This document shows, piece after piece, positions 1 to 3,394 of a stretch of 64,000 nt of DNA. Numbering within the stretch: position 1 is the stretch's first letter; each line of letters begins with the position of its first letter. The stretch spans positions 288,001 through 352,000 of the forward strand of contig CBDCNP010000002.1 of the NCBI GenBank assembly GCA_965219415.1, given 5' to 3'. The translations under genes were made by a program, and so were the position numbers. The DNA comes from Candidatus Marinacidobacterales bacterium. Its GTDB lineage: Bacteria > Acidobacteriota > Vicinamibacteria > Marinacidobacterales > DATDRI01. A model generated the notes under the pieces. The model searched no databases, was not told where the DNA came from, and was given only the letters and a program-made list of their open reading frames with translations.

Positions 1-841
1 GACACCGGCGCCAGAAAGCGTGCAGCGTTGGCGGGTAGGGTTCTCTAGCGCCGATGCCCGCGTTGTTCGCAAACGGTCGCAGCCGTTCGTACAGTGCCGA
101 TCGGAGGGCCGCCGCCGGTTCCGAGAGTGGCTCCCGAAAATAGTAATAAGTACCGACTCCGTAGCCCTTAGGAGCCATGTCCACACGACGCTCGAACCGC
201 TTCTCATCCGCGGCCGCCTCGAGAATCGTGCTGCAGTCCGACGAAGACAACAGCGCCTCGATATGAACATAGCCGAAAGACATCAAAGAATCGCCCACTG
301 CAACCCAATCGAGCCGCGCCATGCGGCGCAGCAGGCGTTGGGCCGCCACCCCTGCGTCGGGTGAGCTGGACCCCGTGCCAAAAGGAAGTGGCTCGGGAAC
401 CGCACTCGCCCCGTCTAGATGGACGAATCCACGCGCTTGCGCGACCACTTCGCTCGGGAAGCCTTCCGCCCGCTCCGGTGACAGCGTTGCGAGCCTTCGG
501 TCGGAAGCCGATGCGAACCTACGACCCGTGTAGTTTCCAACCCAGGATCGCCCGACCCTTCGTGCCCAGTCGGCGATGCTCTCCCCTTTCCGAGGCCGCG
601 CTCCTTCTCGACGCAATTGTCGAAGCTGCATGACGGCGCGGGCGGTGTCCTTGGTCAGCGTGCCATTCGAGGCCACGACCCGGTGCCACGGAACGAGTGA
701 GCGGAGTCCGCATTGCCCCATCGCTCGCCCCGCGGCACGAGCGGCCCCGGGGCGCCCGGCCATGGCCGCTAGCTCCATAAACGAGCGTGTCTCGCCCTTA
801 GGGATCTGCTTAGCCGCTTCCAGGTAAGGATTGAACCGCAT
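1..841 (-). CDS. ATL (alkyltransferase-like) / Ada-like / 2OG-Fe(II) oxygenase (Oxygenase-NA, DUF2086-like) fusion; 3' end runs off the window
   Basis: Manual translation from the ATG at 841 stays open to the window edge: MRFNPYLEAAKQIPKGETRSFMELAAMAGRPGAARAAGRAM...VPWHRVVASNG...RLDWVAVGDSLMSFGYVHIEALLSSSDC...RFERRVDMAPKGYGVGTYYYFREPLSEPAAALRSALYERLRPFAN. Not in the ORF track. Confidence 0.8.
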   Translation of the reverse strand, partial: MRFNPYLEAAKQIPKGETRSFMELAAMAGRPGAARAAGRAMGQCGLRSLVPWHRVVASNGTLTKDTARAVMQLRQLRREGARPRKGESIADWARRVGRSWVGNYTGRRFASASDRRLATLSPERAEGFPSEVVAQARGFVHLDGASAVPEPLPFGTGSSSPDAGVAAQRLLRRMARLDWVAVGDSLMSFGYVHIEALLSSSDCSTILEAAADEKRFERRVDMAPKGYGVGTYYYFREPLSEPAAALRSALYERLRPFANNAGIGAREPYPPTLHAFWRRC

Positions 842-969
842 TTCCGACTCGACCGCGTCCAATACCGCCGACTCTCGGGCAACGCCGCAGAAGAACCGGT
901 GGTATTCAACGCAGCTCGCGAAAAAGAAACAGCAAGCAAGGGACCGGAAGTATTTGTCGCGAGCTGTAT

Positions 970-2205
970 TTACTCCGGCCTCTCCCCTAGCACGACGTCC
1001 ACAGTCATCGACTGACCGTCGCGCAACACCGTCAGCGTCACGGTCTCACCCACGCGAGTCTCGGTCTCGAGATAAACGTTGACGCCACGGTAGTCCTTGA
1101 CCGGCTCTCCGTTGATGGCGGCGATGACGTCACCGCCGATGGGCACCCTCACGTTTCCCAATCTCACCACCTGACGCCCACCCCGTAGCCCCGCCCCGGC
1201 GGCCGGCCCCCGTCGAATCACTTCCGCGATCAACACTCCCCCGTCGGGTGGAATCATGGCGCCGACTCGATTCAGCACCTCGGCATGTGCGGGGCCAAGG
1301 TCCATCAAAGTGATGCCGAGCCAGGGGTGCGGGTAGCGGCCGCGGGCGATGAGCTCTGGTACGACGCGCGTTACGGTCGTCGTTGGAATGGCAAAGCCGA
1401 TTCCGGCGGAAGCACGGCTCGGGCTATAGATCATGCTGTTCACACCAACCACGTTCCCCGCCAGGTCCAAAAGGGGCCCCCCGGAGTTGCCAGGATTGAT
1501 CGCTGCATCGGTCTGAATGATCTCGCCTATGAAACTATAGCGCCTACCTGGGCTTTGGATGATCCTCCCCAGCGAGCTGACGACACCCGTCGTCAGAGTG
1601 CGATCGAGACCGAAAGGGTTGCCGATGGCCACGACGAAACGACCGACCCGAAGCTCATCCGAATCACCAAGACGAAGGACGTGCAAGCGTTCGGGAGTGA
1701 CATCAACCTTGACCACGGCGAGATCATTAGAAGGGTCGGCGCCCCCTATTTGCGCGCGGACGACGGAACCATCCGGAAAGGTGACATAGAGCTCGTCGGC
1801 CCGTTCCACGACGTGATAGTTCGTGACGATATGTCCGGTCTGGTCCCATACGAAACCCGAACCCGAGCCTTCTTGGGGAATGGCGTTCCGAAAGAAGTCG
1901 TAGGAGATCGATCGACTAGTAATGTTAACGACTCCGGGGCTCGCCTTCTCATAAACCGCGATGACCTTGACCTCGAGGTCATGGAGCGTGCCAGCAGCGA
2001 CACTTGGATTTGGATCCGCCTGTTCGCTGGCAGGCACTACCCCCGCCGACGCAGTTTGGACTGCGGGCTCAACGGTACTTGCAAGGGCATCGTCCTCACC
2101 GGGGGTGCTTGCGGGCTCTTGCCACTGGCAGGCAAAGGCACCTGCCCAGGATAGCAAGAGAATGCCGGCGCCCGACCGCACCCGTGAAACTCTCATTGAT
2201 TCCAA
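970..2205 (-). CDS. HtrA/DegP-family (S1C) serine protease with PDZ domain, probable lipoprotein
   Basis: Catalytic motifs GSGSGF, TNYHVV, DLAVVK and TDAAINPGNSGGPL; C-terminal PDZ; lipobox-like AFAC. Confidence 0.95.
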   Translation of the reverse strand: MESMRVSRVRSGAGILLLSWAGAFACQWQEPASTPGEDDALASTVEPAVQTASAGVVPASEQADPNPSVAAGTLHDLEVKVIAVYEKASPGVVNITSRSISYDFFRNAIPQEGSGSGFVWDQTGHIVTNYHVVERADELYVTFPDGSVVRAQIGGADPSNDLAVVKVDVTPERLHVLRLGDSDELRVGRFVVAIGNPFGLDRTLTTGVVSSLGRIIQSPGRRYSFIGEIIQTDAAINPGNSGGPLLDLAGNVVGVNSMIYSPSRASAGIGFAIPTTTVTRVVPELIARGRYPHPWLGITLMDLGPAHAEVLNRVGAMIPPDGGVLIAEVIRRGPAAGAGLRGGRQVVRLGNVRVPIGGDVIAAINGEPVKDYRGVNVYLETETRVGETVTLTVLRDGQSMTVDVVLGERPE

Positions 2206-2416: not shown

Positions 2417-3394
2417 ATGAGAGCATTAATCGTCGTACTATCGATACTCGTTGCGTCGATCGAAGCGGCCGGCCAAGAGCGACCTGAAACCGCCCAGTAC
2501 CGTGGGCCTGCCGGTGATGCCGAACATCTGAGTTTCGTTCACGTAAACGGGGTTCGCTTGGCCTACCGTATGGAAGGCGCCGGTTTTCCGGTCATCTTCG
2601 TCCACGGAGAAGGTTACTCACACGAGCTCTGGACGGAGCAAATCGAGGCTTTCGGGCGAAAGCACCTCTTCCTCAGCTACGACCGCCGCGGGCACGGACA
2701 GTCCGAAGACCCGATTACCGGGTACTCCGAAATCGCCCATGCCGAAGATTTGAAGGCTCTGATGGCGCATTTCGGAATGAGAGAAGCACATTTCGTGGTG
2801 AACTCCAGGGGAGGCGCCGTCATCACGCAGTTCTTGCGCATCTACCCGGCAAGAGTCCGCAGCATCACTTTTGCGGACGCCACCATCGCGCTGGCTGAGA
2901 TCTCCGAGGCATTCAAGCCTGCGGTGGAGCGCCTCAAGGGCCCGCCACCCTCGCTAGAGGAGGCCGTGCGCGGTCGTGAAGGAGCCAAGAAGTCGTCCTT
3001 CACCAAGGTGGCTCAATCCAAGGACGAAACCCGAGCCGTCCTCGAGCGGATGGTCGATCAATACAGCCCGCGCGTTGCCATGAATCCACAGAGATCCGAC
3101 CAAACCTCCCCGACACACATCGGCCCTTGGAACCGTCGCGACTTTCCGGATATGTCGAAAATCTATCAACCGATGCTATTGGTCGTGGGCGAGCTCACCG
3201 ATATTTTCTTCATCGAAGGGGCCCAAGAAGCCCACCGTCTCTGGCCCAATACCCGTTACCACATGATTCCGGGAACGGACCACCTTCTGGCGCTCGAGGC
3301 CCCGGACGTATTCAATTCATTGGTACTCGACTTCCTCGCCGAGGTGGACGCACAGGTCGCGACCCGTGACGAGTGGGTGGGACAGGTTCCCTAG
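2417..3394 (+). CDS. Secreted alpha/beta hydrolase
   Basis: Signal peptide; FVHGEG, YDRRGHGQS, nucleophile elbow VNSRGG, C-terminal DH. Confidence 0.85.
   Translation: MRALIVVLSILVASIEAAGQERPETAQYRGPAGDAEHLSFVHVNGVRLAYRMEGAGFPVIFVHGEGYSHELWTEQIEAFGRKHLFLSYDRRGHGQSEDPITGYSEIAHAEDLKALMAHFGMREAHFVVNSRGGAVITQFLRIYPARVRSITFADATIALAEISEAFKPAVERLKGPPPSLEEAVRGREGAKKSSFTKVAQSKDETRAVLERMVDQYSPRVAMNPQRSDQTSPTHIGPWNRRDFPDMSKIYQPMLLVVGELTDIFFIEGAQEAHRLWPNTRYHMIPGTDHLLALEAPDVFNSLVLDFLAEVDAQVATRDEWVGQVP

What the first reader, a model, noticed from the sequence alone, without database searches (positions are those of the whole stretch)
1..841. Unannotated three-module alkylation-repair fusion: ATL + Cys-less Ada-like domain + 2OG-Fe(II) oxygenase
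Seen: one uninterrupted 280-codon minus-strand frame that the ORF track misses. Its N-terminus has the AGT/MGMT DNA-binding pattern (IPKGETRSF.ELA.MAGRPGAARAAGRAM) but PWHRV in place of PCHRV. The middle segment (WVGNYTGRRF...PERAEGFPSEVVAQARGF) resembles the Ada N-terminal metal-binding domain with its Cys ligands lost. The third part (LDWVAVGDSL..FGY..RFERRVDMAPKGYGVGTYYYFREPL..LRSALYERL) resembles Oxygenase-NA/DUF2086. Known: Trp-substituted ATLs bind O6-alkylguanine without transferring the alkyl group. Inference: two disarmed methyl-acceptor modules act as lesion sensors that deliver an oxidative dealkylase, which would be a catalytic rather than suicidal repair architecture. I do not know it as a described fusion.
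Basis: partly seen in the sequence, partly recalled or inferred. Interest (0 to 1): 0.8.

Follow-up and report, generated by a model that had tools for sequence, protein, structure and literature searches.

The report
ATL–Ada-like–oxygenase DNA repair fusion
A real 398-residue bacterial gene joins two "disarmed" alkylation-damage recognition domains to an intact iron/2-oxoglutarate oxygenase whose relatives sit in ada–alkB repair operons, which points to an untested, possibly catalytic, way of removing alkyl damage from DNA.

Summary
Window 841..1 (minus strand) is the first 280 codons of a 398-aa gene that continues 356 nt past the left edge (G000:C3:287645-288841).

It has three modules:
- **ATL domain** (res 7-83): PF01035, E 4.6e-20, with PWHRV in place of PCHRV.
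- **Cys-less module** (res 84-141): Pfam does not detect it, but it has the fold of the N-terminal domain of E. coli Ada (N-Ada). N-Ada structures are the top 3 Foldseek hits and the top 2 hits by the VIA structural aligner (VIA-align 2; Z 5.9 and 4.8, next 2.4). hhalign gives P 6.4e-4, above 100 of 100 shuffles.
- **PF09859 oxygenase** (res 166-398): complete, E 3.6e-44, with H304-x-D306, H377 and R387 invariant in 63 of 63 homologs.

The fusion is not an assembly error. 91 of 120 listed homolog clusters carry both Pfam domains, and 20 genome loci encode it (Acidobacteriota, Planctomycetota). It is common but, in the literature I could search, uncharacterised.

New context:
- 43 of 80 stand-alone PF09859 genes lie co-directionally beside ada, AGT or alkB, typically ada→PF09859→alkB.
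- One locus encodes an "armed", unfused version of the same module order: AGT with Cys, then Ada-Zn with four Cys, then the oxygenase.

The mechanism, oxidative catalytic dealkylation guided by disarmed sensors, is plausible but untested. The oxygenase fold is closest to prolyl hydroxylases, not AlkB.

The parts
1..841 (-). First 280 codons (plus 1 nt) of the 398-aa fusion gene. The gene continues 353 coding nt plus a stop beyond the window's left edge (whole gene G000:C3:287645-288841, minus strand).
   Evidence: ORF list and translation. Flank recovered from the window's own genome and translated. The identical protein is a called gene in public data.
839..841 (-). Likely ATG start (an alternative in-frame TTG lies at 860-862).
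   Evidence: Homologs begin at the equivalent position, e.g. P0008 and P0013. The upstream sequence was read, and no sigma-70-like promoter was found nearby.
593..823 (-). Alkyltransferase-like (ATL) domain, residues 7-83: AGT C-terminal DNA-binding fold without the AGT N-terminal domain.
   Evidence: PF01035 E 4.6e-20. The best PDB sequence hits are Vibrio ATL 2kif, Mtb OGT and S. pombe Atl1. R35 (Arg-finger column) is invariant in 63 of 63.
677..691 (-). PWHRV motif (residues 51-55), with Trp52 at the position of the AGT methyl-acceptor Cys.
   Evidence: Aligned to PCHRV of 4bhb and PWFRV of 2kif. Column composition: W 53, R 5, V 2, H 1, C 1, gap 1 of 63.
419..592 (-). Metal-free N-Ada-like module, residues 84-141 (helix, two strands, short helix, strand, helix).
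   Evidence: - hhalign against 29 true Ada Zn domains: P 6.4e-4, score 22.05, with 0 of 100 column shuffles reaching it.
- AF2 model of the domain: pLDDT 88.
- Foldseek: top 3 of 350,542 chains are 1u8b, 1zgw, 1wpk.
- VIA wide: top 2 of 48,161 are 1u8b Z 5.9 and 1eyf Z 4.8, next 2.4.
- 0 of 63 have Cys at the four Zn-ligand columns.
- Against: PF02805 matches 0 of 63 at E<=10.
347..418 (-). Poorly conserved linker, residues 142-165.
   Evidence: Mean identity to the query is 20%, against 44-65% in the domains. pLDDT dips to 86 here in the full model.
1..346 (-). N-terminal part (residues 166-280) of the Fe(II)/2OG oxygenase domain (PF09859, residues 166-398). The catalytic H304-x-D306, H377 and R387 lie outside the window, in the left flank.
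   Evidence: - PF09859 E 3.6e-44, positions 1-171 of 172.
- BLASTP to a stand-alone PF09859 protein aligns residues 170-397 at 36% identity.
- H304, D306, H377 and R387 are each 63 of 63.
- Fold Z 16.2 to Pseudomonas prolyl hydroxylase 4j25.

Best explanation
The gene encodes a single-chain DNA alkylation-damage enzyme.

**Targeting modules (shown to be non-catalytic).** Both derive from the two methyl-acceptor domains of the Ada/AGT system, and both have lost their acceptor cysteines.
- A Trp-type ATL, which by analogy with known ATLs binds O6-alkylguanine with the base flipped out.
- A metal-free N-Ada-like fold, which by analogy with N-Ada contacts the phosphate backbone.

**Catalytic module (intact by sequence).** They tether a Fe(II)/2-oxoglutarate oxygenase of family PF09859 to alkylated DNA.

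**Inferred chemistry.** The oxygenase hydroxylates the alpha-carbon of an alkyl adduct, which then leaves as an aldehyde. Repair is therefore catalytic, not stoichiometric.

**Most likely substrate class (inferred, not shown).** O-linked alkyl lesions: O6-alkylG, O4-alkylT or alkylphosphotriesters. These are the lesions the two ancestral acceptor domains are specialised for. The oxygenase family also co-occurs with AlkB in one operon, so it is not redundant with AlkB.

**Mode of delivery.** A derived subfamily swaps the Ada-like module for a flexible, highly basic linker. Delivery is therefore more likely by tethering, which raises the local concentration on damaged DNA, than by an obligatory rigid hand-off.
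For: **Domains.**
- PF01035 E 4.6e-20 and PF09859 E 3.6e-44.
- PWHRV aligned to PCHRV/PWFRV of solved AGT/ATL.
- Trp in 53 of 63 and Cys in 1 of 63 at the acceptor column.
- H304, D306, H377 and R387 each 63 of 63.

**Middle module is N-Ada-like.**
- hhalign P 6.4e-4, exceeding 100 of 100 shuffles.
- Foldseek top 3 and VIA top 2 are N-Ada.
- No Cys at the ligand columns, 0 of 63.

**Fusion is real.**
- 91 of 120 listed clusters carry both Pfam domains.
- All 63 aligned members carry both.
- 20 genome loci encode it.
- AF2 full-length model: pLDDT 94.7, pTM 0.89.

**Link of the oxygenase family to alkylation repair.**
- 43 of 80 stand-alone PF09859 loci have ada, AGT or alkB within 2.5 kb, every hit on the same strand. 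alkB is present in 20 of them.
- 21 of 22 sampled neighbour ORFs were confirmed with Pfam.
- In the window's phylum, 3 of 9 stand-alone loci show this: L057 ada-PF09859-alkB, L058 PF09859-alkB, L063.
- L063 encodes AGT (PCHRV) followed by Ada-Zn with four Cys, then PF09859. This is the same module order, armed and unfused.

**Evolution.** Fused oxygenase domains form one group against stand-alone ones (99 SH-aLRT). Short forms are nested within long forms (quick tree).
Against: - No activity was measured.
- The oxygenase domain's nearest solved folds are protein prolyl hydroxylases and amino-acid hydroxylases (4j25 Z 16.2, PHD2, Tpa1, OGFOD1, HalB). No AlkB appears in the 50 rows shown.
- Tpa1, a P4H-like enzyme once proposed as a DNA dealkylase, was shown not to repair DNA (PMC6746446, abstract).
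- No 2OG oxygenase is known to me (recalled) to reverse O6-alkylguanine.
- The flipping Tyr of AGT/ATL is Phe here (F21; family 47 F, 8 Y, 8 gaps of 63).
- The curated PF02805 model does not detect the middle module (0 of 63 at E<=10; nor in a six-frame scan of the genome).
- The module is absent in 20 of 93 fusion-length homologs.
- The fusion gene's own neighbours are unrelated to repair.
- I could not inspect model coordinates, so I do not know whether the ATL pocket faces the iron site.
Confidence: 0.55

Rival explanations
1. It is an AlkB substitute. The oxygenase removes N-alkyl lesions (1-meA, 3-meC and the like). The ATL and Ada-like modules only raise its affinity for alkylated duplex DNA.
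For: - The window's genome (96% complete) has no PF13532/AlkB match.
- 15 of 17 other fusion-bearing genomes have none either.
- Oxidative N-dealkylation is the only established DNA chemistry for 2OG oxygenases in repair (established knowledge of AlkB).
Against: - AlkB is rare in this phylum anyway (13 of 151, a count that includes one unpublished genome, G024). Its absence is therefore uninformative.
- Stand-alone PF09859 sits next to alkB in 20 of 80 loci, which argues for a different job.
- There is no PF13532 match at E<=1 and no AlkB among the 50 best fold matches shown.
Confidence: 0.2
2. It is a protein oxygenase. The P4H-like domain hydroxylates or demethylates a protein at damage sites. 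Candidates are a repair or transcription factor, or S-methylcysteine on methylated Ada/AGT, which would regenerate them. The N-terminal modules localise it on DNA.
For: - The nearest folds are all protein or amino-acid hydroxylases.
- There is a weak PF13640 (P4H-type) match at 26.2 bits against a cut-off of 27.
- The operon partners Ada/AGT become S-methylated (established knowledge).
- The Tpa1 precedent: a P4H-like enzyme wrongly assigned to DNA repair (abstract).
Against: - In the fusion both acceptor domains lack the cysteines that would carry the methyl group. They therefore cannot be substrates in cis.
- The catalytic residues remain invariant.
- Fusion to two DNA-lesion-binding folds is more simply read as DNA targeting.
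Confidence: 0.15
3. It is not a repair enzyme. It could be a base-modifying or regulatory protein that uses AGT-like and Ada-like folds merely as generic DNA-binding domains.
For: - The fusion gene has no repair neighbours.
- The flipping Tyr is Phe.
- The Ada-like module is dispensable in a subfamily.
Against: The family-wide linkage of PF09859 to ada/AGT/alkB, together with conservation of the Arg finger and the PWHRV lesion-pocket motif, points to alkylation damage.
Confidence: 0.07
4. It is an artefact: ATL and oxygenase are separate genes joined by an assembly or frameshift error.
For: None found. The only weak point is that the genome bin has 8.45% estimated contamination.
Against: - The same architecture is found in 91 of 120 listed clusters.
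- It occurs in 20 independent genome loci and in 63 of 63 aligned members.
- The identical protein occurs on 2 contigs, with a second 398-aa member in its cluster.
- The single-chain model is confident (pTM 0.89).
Confidence: 0.01

Closest known systems
Alkyltransferase-like proteins (ATL: Vibrio vpAtl 2kif, S. pombe Atl1 3gva, E. coli eAtl)
   Same: - Only the AGT C-terminal DNA-binding domain is present.
- The acceptor Cys is replaced by Trp (PWHRV).
- The Arg-finger column is conserved.
- These are among the best sequence matches in the PDB.
   Different: Known ATLs are small stand-alone proteins that hand lesions to nucleotide excision repair (PMC10779285, passages). Here the domain is the N-terminus of a 398-aa enzyme, and the conserved Tyr is Phe.
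AGT-EndoV and ATL-EndoV fusions of archaea; C. elegans AGT-2
   Same: Precedent for fusing an AGT/ATL lesion-recognition domain to a second repair activity (PMC10779285, passages read).
   Different: The partner there is an endonuclease or a histone-like region. That review's text holds 'oxygenase' 0 times, and 'dioxygenase' only in two ALKB contexts, one of them a reference-list entry.
N-terminal domain of E. coli Ada (N-Ada; PF02805; 1u8b, 1eyf, 1zgw, 1wpk)
   Same: - Same predicted fold and secondary-structure order.
- Top-ranked structural match.
- Weak profile-profile match in the same register.
   Different: - All four Zn-ligand cysteines are absent (0 of 63). The module can neither bind Zn that way nor accept a methyl group.
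- The Cys42-equivalent column is Asp/Glu in 55 of 63.
- The curated HMM does not match.
- The module follows the AGT-like domain, whereas in Ada it precedes it.
Stand-alone PF09859 ('Oxygenase-NA', formerly DUF2086) genes of ada operons
   Same: Same oxygenase family (36% identity over residues 170-397) and the same iron and 2OG ligands. The family is linked to ada/AGT/alkB in 43 of 80 loci.
   Different: - They are about 230-260 aa with no DNA-binding domains.
- Their motif is NCLHQD where the fusion has NHPHRD.
- They form a separate branch from the fused forms.
AlkB (PF13532) oxidative dealkylases
   Same: Fe(II)/2OG oxygenase in an alkylation-repair context. This is the proposed type of chemistry.
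   Different: There is no PF13532 match. The fold neighbours are P4H/PHD-type. AlkB is encoded alongside PF09859 in many operons, so the two are distinct.
Prolyl-4-hydroxylase/PHD-type oxygenases (Pseudomonas PPHD 4j25/4iw3, PHD2, Tpa1, OGFOD1)
   Same: These are the closest solved folds: Z 16.2, rmsd 3.1 A, 173 residues aligned for 4j25_E.
   Different: Sequence identity is only 11-17%. Those enzymes act on proteins and are not fused to DNA-lesion-binding domains.

Membership tests
ATL (alkyltransferase-like) proteins | Homology to the AGT C-terminal DNA-binding domain (PF01035) | tested here: met
   E 4.6e-20, residues 7-80. PDB hits 2kif, 4bhb and 3gva.
ATL (alkyltransferase-like) proteins | Acceptor Cys of PCHR(V/I) replaced (Trp or Ala) | tested here: met
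   PWHRV. Family column: W 53, R 5, V 2, H 1, C 1, gap 1 of 63.
ATL (alkyltransferase-like) proteins | No AGT N-terminal (PF02870) domain | tested here: met
   No PF02870 match at E<=1, and the domain starts at residue 7.
ATL (alkyltransferase-like) proteins | Arg finger and the conserved Tyr that promote base flipping (residue roles recalled from AGT/ATL structures) | tested here: inconclusive
   The Arg column (R35) is 63 of 63. The Tyr column is Phe in this protein (family 47 F, 8 Y, 8 gaps of 63).
ATL (alkyltransferase-like) proteins | Binds O6-alkylguanine DNA without alkyl transfer | not testable with these tools
   Needs binding and transfer assays.
Ada_Zn_binding (PF02805, N-Ada) | Match to the curated family model | tested here: not met
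   0 of 63 members at E<=10. The six-frame scan of the window's genome at E<=10 finds only the true Ada. Only a weak profile-profile match exists (P 6.4e-4).
Ada_Zn_binding (PF02805, N-Ada) | N-Ada fold | tested here: met
   Predicted model only. Foldseek top 3 are 1u8b, 1zgw, 1wpk (TMq 0.62, rmsd 2.3 A, but E 0.4). VIA: 1u8b Z 5.9, rmsd 1.9 A, 50 aligned; 1eyf Z 4.8; next 2.4.
Ada_Zn_binding (PF02805, N-Ada) | Zn(Cys)4 site including the methyl-acceptor Cys38 | tested here: not met
   0 of 63 have Cys at any of the four aligned columns. No member has 3 or more Cys in the module.
PF09859 Oxygenase-NA | Full-length match to the family model | tested here: met
   E 3.6e-44, positions 1-171 of 172.
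PF09859 Oxygenase-NA | 2-His-1-carboxylate iron triad and the 2OG-binding Arg | tested here: met
   H304, D306, H377 and R387 are each 63 of 63, aligned to LHQD...RHGV of stand-alone members. The ligand roles are assigned by analogy with 2OG oxygenases.
PF09859 Oxygenase-NA | Oxidative demethylation of damaged DNA (the activity in the Pfam name) | not testable with these tools
   I found no experimental paper. Only genomic linkage to ada/alkB was found.
AlkB family (PF13532) | Match to the family model | tested here: not met
   No PF13532 match at E<=1.
AlkB family (PF13532) | AlkB-like fold with a nucleotide-recognition lid | tested here: inconclusive
   The 50 rows shown by Foldseek and VIA are P4H/PHD-type. 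AlkB may rank lower.
Prolyl-4-hydroxylase/PHD-type 2OG oxygenases | Fold similarity and the PF13640 model | tested here: inconclusive
   Fold Z 16.2 to 4j25, but PF13640 scores 26.2 bits, below its cut-off of 27. The substrate is unknown.

The most novel reading that the evidence does not exclude
The fusion, and by extension the widespread PF09859 gene of ada operons, is the first catalytic, oxidative direct-reversal enzyme for O-alkyl DNA lesions (O6-alkylguanine, O4-alkylthymine and/or alkylphosphotriesters). The cysteine-less descendants of the two suicide acceptor domains hold the lesion for the oxygenase. Bacteria would then have an alternative to the one-shot Ada/AGT chemistry.
Probability: 0.25. 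Interest if true: 0.9.

Novelty: new variant of a known kind. Interest (0 to 1): 0.62.

Why it matters
**The gap it addresses.** O6-alkylguanine and alkylphosphotriesters are, as far as is established, repaired only by stoichiometric suicide transfer (Ada/AGT) or by excision after ATL binding.

**What this protein suggests.** It couples cysteine-less versions of both acceptor folds to an intact 2OG oxygenase. The family is conserved across two phyla and linked by ancestry to ada-alkB operons. This gives a concrete, directly testable candidate for a catalytic route.

**The wider family.** Whatever the substrate, PF09859 emerges as a frequent and uncharacterised third gene of ada operons, including in cultured Pseudomonas, Bradyrhizobium and Sorangium. 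The Ada-response review I read (PMC4437013, passages) does not list it.

**Value for annotation.** The middle domain shows that a recognisable N-Ada fold can persist without zinc, and current family models miss it.

Tried and rejected
**Ada-like module**
- PF02805 against the protein (E<=1): no match.
- PF02805 against the whole genome in six frames (E<=10): no match to the middle module.
- PF02805 against all 63 homologs (E<=10): no match.
- Local hmmsearch with my own Ada HMM gave only weak reciprocal hits. Best E was 5.9e-4 among 63 modules and 3.1e-3 among 29 Ada domains.
- phmmer of the module against 1.84 billion representatives gave 9 hits. Eight are the same family at positions ~77-147. 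The ninth, P0142, is a low-complexity repeat protein. No Cys-bearing intermediates were found this way.

**Gene neighbourhood of the fusion**
- Nothing repair-related was found.
- A PilZ gene lies convergently downstream in 3 related loci, which I read as synteny.

**AlkB co-occurrence as a test of redundancy**
- 2 of 17 fusion genomes against 13 of 151 baseline. This is uninformative.

**Homologs lacking PF01035 (9 of the first 100)**
- Of the 7 I read, all are N-terminally truncated gene calls, not ATL-less forms. P0007 (ATL region diverged in the alignment) and P0091 were not read.

**Promoter and terminator scan**
- No promoter-like site. The 2 terminator-like sites are within the shuffle expectation.

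**Literature**
- Searches for 'DUF2086', 'PF09859', 'Oxygenase-NA', '2OGFeDO + methylguanine', 'alkyltransferase-like + dioxygenase + fusion', 'alkyltransferase-like + 2-oxoglutarate + domain architecture' and 'Ada regulon + alkB + 2OG-Fe' found no paper on this fusion or on PF09859.
- Iyer, Tahiliani, Rao & Aravind 2009 (Cell Cycle) is the paper I recall as the source of the Pfam family's predicted role. It is not held, so I could not check whether it already notes the ATL fusion.

**Other limits**
- The careful tree search did not finish, so only the quick tree is reported.
- Model coordinates are not exposed, so the geometry between the ATL pocket and the iron site was not examined.
Full report
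**1. The observation.** The minus strand of window 1-862 carries an open frame with no stop before the window's left edge. The window is G000:C3:288001-352000. In the recovered flank the frame closes after 398 codons, or 405 from an upstream TTG. The gene is G000:C3:287645-288841 on the minus strand, with 353 coding nt plus the stop lying outside the window. Homologs start at the position of the ATG. Long spurious ORFs are common in this 60-66% GC region. The domain E-values below nevertheless show that this frame is a real gene.

**2. End domains.** Pfam finds PF01035 (AGT DNA-binding domain) at residues 7-80 with E 4.6e-20. It finds PF09859 (Oxygenase-NA) at 230-396, covering 1-171 of 172 profile positions, with E 3.6e-44. 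There is also a sub-threshold PF13640 match. NCBIfam gives only the generic ogt superfamily.
- Against PDB sequences the best matches are Vibrio ATL 2kif (PWFRV), M. tuberculosis OGT 4bhb (PCHRV) and S. pombe Atl1 3gva. PWHRV aligns on the acceptor motif.
- A stand-alone PF09859 protein aligns to residues 170-397 at 36% identity.
- In an alignment of 63 full-length homologs, H304, D306, H377 and R387 are invariant. These are NHPHRD, RHGM and the Arg ten residues after the distal His.

**3. The middle segment.** Residues 84-141 are a conserved block (E87, R95 and R137 invariant; W92, E126, A134 and F139 nearly so).

Curated models do not see the Ada domain here:
- PF02805 gives no match at E<=1.
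- It gives none in a six-frame scan of the genome at E<=10, where only the true Ada rings.
- It matches 0 of 63 homologs at E<=10.

- **Profile-profile.** The module alignment was compared with 29 bona fide Ada Zn domains taken from the same phylum. 0 of 100 column shuffles reached that score (maximum 15.8, mean 9.6, sd 2.0). The reversed alignment scored 12.9.
- **Predicted fold.** An AF2 model of the segment (pLDDT 88.2) has the order helix, strand, strand, short helix, strand, helix.
- **Structure searches.** Foldseek's three best matches among 350,542 PDB chains are all E. coli N-Ada: 1u8b (TMq 0.62, rmsd 2.3 A, prob 0.94, but E only 0.4), 1zgw and 1wpk. The VIA search, which does not depend on Foldseek, covered 48,161 representatives. 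It ranks 1u8b (Z 5.9, rmsd 1.9 A, 50 aligned) and 1eyf (Z 4.8) first, with the next chain at Z 2.4.

At the four columns that align with the zinc ligands, 0 of 63 homologs have Cys. The Cys38-equivalent is A/V/L in 55 of 63 and the Cys42-equivalent is D/E in 55 of 63. I therefore describe the module as a metal-free N-Ada-like fold. It is probably a divergent homolog, but it is not a member of PF02805 as that family is defined.

**4. Is the fusion real and how common is it?**
- Of the 120 best clusters listed by the homology search (147 hits at E<=0.001), 91 carry both PF01035 and PF09859.
- Nine of the first 100 lack PF01035. The 7 I read are N-terminally truncated gene calls; P0007 and P0091 were not read.
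- Twenty genome loci encode the fusion, all in MAGs. They are labelled Acidobacteriota (including Vicinamibacteria and Acanthopleuribacteraceae) or Planctomycetota, plus one 'Deltaproteobacteria' and two bins labelled only 'uncultured bacterium'.
- The identical 398-aa protein is a called gene in NCBI/ENA. Named relatives are '2OG-Fe(II) oxygenase' or 'alkylated DNA nucleotide flippase Atl1'.
- The full-length AF2 model is confident (pLDDT 94.7, pTM 0.89). This suggests a defined arrangement of the three modules, but I could not inspect coordinates.
- Trp occupies the acceptor column in 53 of 63; the rest are R 5, V 2, H 1, C 1 and one gap.

**5. Two subfamilies.**
- Among 93 fusion-length homologs, 72 have the module. 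In 20 it is replaced by a linker of about 29 residues with mean net charge +7.5. One is partial.
- In a quick IQ-TREE of 124 oxygenase domains, fused forms separate from stand-alone forms (99 SH-aLRT).
- In the same tree the 20 short forms are one clade (98) nested among long forms (the careful search was unfinished and the root is a midpoint).
- The three-module form therefore looks ancestral within the fusion clade, and the module is replaceable by a generic DNA-binding tail.

**6. What the oxygenase family is associated with.**

In 151 genomes of the window's phylum, PF09859 occurs in 10. Of the 9 stand-alone loci there, 3 are next to alkylation-repair genes:
- L057: ada (Ada_Zn + AraC HTH + AGT), then PF09859, then alkB.
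- L058: PF09859, then alkB.
- L063: an ECF sigma factor; then a 364-aa protein with an active-type AGT (PCHRV) followed by a Cys-intact Ada-Zn domain (PF02805 E 4.5e-8); then PF09859.

L063 has the window gene's module order, but armed and unfused. A second protein of that architecture, with a zf-HC2-like N-terminus, is in L072.

A wider survey supports the link:
- With local HMMs built from Pfam-verified seeds, 43 of 80 loci have ada, AGT or alkB within 2.5 kb (alkB 20, AGT 34, Ada-Zn 26). Every hit is on the strand of the oxygenase gene.
- Pfam confirmed 21 of 22 sampled ORFs.
- The positive loci include cultured Pseudomonas fluorescens and P. kilonensis, Bradyrhizobium, Mesorhizobium, Cupriavidus, Sorangium, Neobacillus and Comamonas.

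The fusion gene itself has no such neighbours. In the window it lies between an HtrA-like protease and, outside the window, a small multihaem cytochrome.

**7. Fold of the oxygenase.** Foldseek and a VIA second look place it with prolyl-4-hydroxylase/PHD-type and amino-acid hydroxylases. Matches include 4j25_E (Z 16.2), 4iw3, PHD2, Tpa1 (Z 14.6), OGFOD1 and HalB/BesD. No AlkB appears in the 50 rows shown. This keeps a protein substrate on the table. Tpa1, a P4H-like enzyme once proposed as a DNA dealkylase, hydroxylates proline and does not repair DNA (PMC6746446, abstract).

**8. Genome context.**
- The window's genome (96.3% complete, 8.45% contamination) has one Ada. It also has two Cys-type AGTs and a short PWHRV fragment.
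- It has no PF13532/AlkB.
- AlkB is found in 2 of 17 other fusion genomes and in 13 of 151 genomes of the phylum sample (this count and the 33 of 61 each include one unpublished genome, G024). Absence of AlkB therefore says nothing here.
- Among the 9 genomes with stand-alone PF09859, 4 also have AlkB: G041, G084, G087 and G123. Some of these are close kin.

**9. Mechanism.**

Shown:
- Three modules.
- Loss of both sets of acceptor cysteines.
- Intact oxygenase ligands.
- Conservation of the fusion.
- Family-level operon linkage to ada/AGT/alkB.

Inferred:
- The N-terminal modules bind alkylated DNA, by analogy with ATL and N-Ada.
- The oxygenase oxidatively removes alkyl groups.
- The lesions are O-linked. 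The reasons are that both targeting folds descend from O-alkyl acceptor domains, and that PF09859 is encoded alongside AlkB and does not replace it.
- Delivery is by tethering, because of the short subfamily.

My odds: targeted oxidative dealkylation of DNA 0.55 overall, of which O-alkyl lesions specifically about 0.25. AlkB-like N-dealkylation 0.2. Protein substrate 0.15. Other 0.07. Artefact 0.01.

**10. Comparison with what is known, and novelty.**
- ATL fusions to EndoV and an AGT fusion to a histone-like region are described. The 2023 review of the family mentions no oxygenase partner in the passages found ('oxygenase' 0 occurrences).
- The 2014 Ada-response review names ada, alkA, alkB and aidB only (passages).
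- Seven literature searches found nothing on PF09859 or this fusion.
- The Pfam name of PF09859 implies an earlier computational prediction of DNA-damage demethylation. I recall its source as Iyer et al. 2009, which is not held. That paper and its supplement may already note the AGT-like fusion.
- The zinc-less N-Ada-like module, the 'armed' unfused counterpart (L063) and the size of the ada-PF09859-alkB association are, as far as these searches reach, not described.

I rate the finding a new variant of a known kind. It is uncharacterised but not rare, with a testable and potentially important mechanism.

Noticed in passing
L063:2208-3514 (minus strand; G038:C89) and L072:1188-2069 (minus strand; G056:C80): Proteins with an N-terminal region (zf-HC2-like Cys/His motif in L072), an active-type AGT (PCHRV) and a C-terminal Cys-intact Ada-Zn domain. 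In L063 the protein is preceded by an ECF sigma factor and followed by PF09859. This looks like a possible alkylation-sensing anti-sigma/sigma pair, an alternative to the AraC-type Ada switch.
   Followed up: partly
L077-L156 (for example L098:1278-3816, L130:2501-5016, L151:1251-3199): Stand-alone PF09859 is a frequent third gene of ada operons (ada, PF09859, alkB; 43 of 80 loci with a repair neighbour, all co-directional). This spans Pseudomonadota, Actinomycetota, Gemmatimonadota, Myxococcota and one Bacillota. It is absent from the Ada-regulon reviews I read.
   Followed up: partly
L064:799-2040 (plus strand; G117:C93): A different fusion of the same oxygenase family: N-terminal TPR repeats plus PF09859 (414 aa). 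It branches with the stand-alone forms.
   Followed up: no
L125:4734-5674 and L095:2920-4855: Downstream of PF09859(-alkB), an AGT gene is followed by a small Ada-Zn-like ORF (Pfam-confirmed in L125, not in L095). This repeats the non-canonical AGT-then-Ada-Zn order.
   Followed up: partly
L071 (G000:C3:592592-592717, outside the window): A second PWHRV-type ATL-like stretch in the same genome, matching only positions 20-63 of PF01035 and preceded by in-frame stops. It may be a truncated ATL or a short gene.
   Followed up: no
whole genome G000: No AlkB (PF13532) was found in the 96%-complete genome, although Ada and two Cys-type AGTs are present.
   Followed up: partly
window 970-2205 (minus strand), window 2417-3394 (plus strand), L001:580-1008 (minus strand): The neighbours of the fusion gene are unrelated to DNA repair. 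They are an HtrA-like trypsin/PDZ protease directly upstream on the same strand, an alpha/beta hydrolase, and a small multihaem cytochrome c downstream (outside the window).
   Followed up: partly
P0059 (homolog): The only fusion-family member seen with PCHRV (Cys retained or regained) at the acceptor site. Its gene call is N-terminally truncated.
   Followed up: no
L036:5512-5955, L038:5136-5537, L049:5175-5597: A PilZ-domain gene lies convergently just downstream of the fusion gene in three related Acidobacteriota loci. This is probably local synteny.
   Followed up: no
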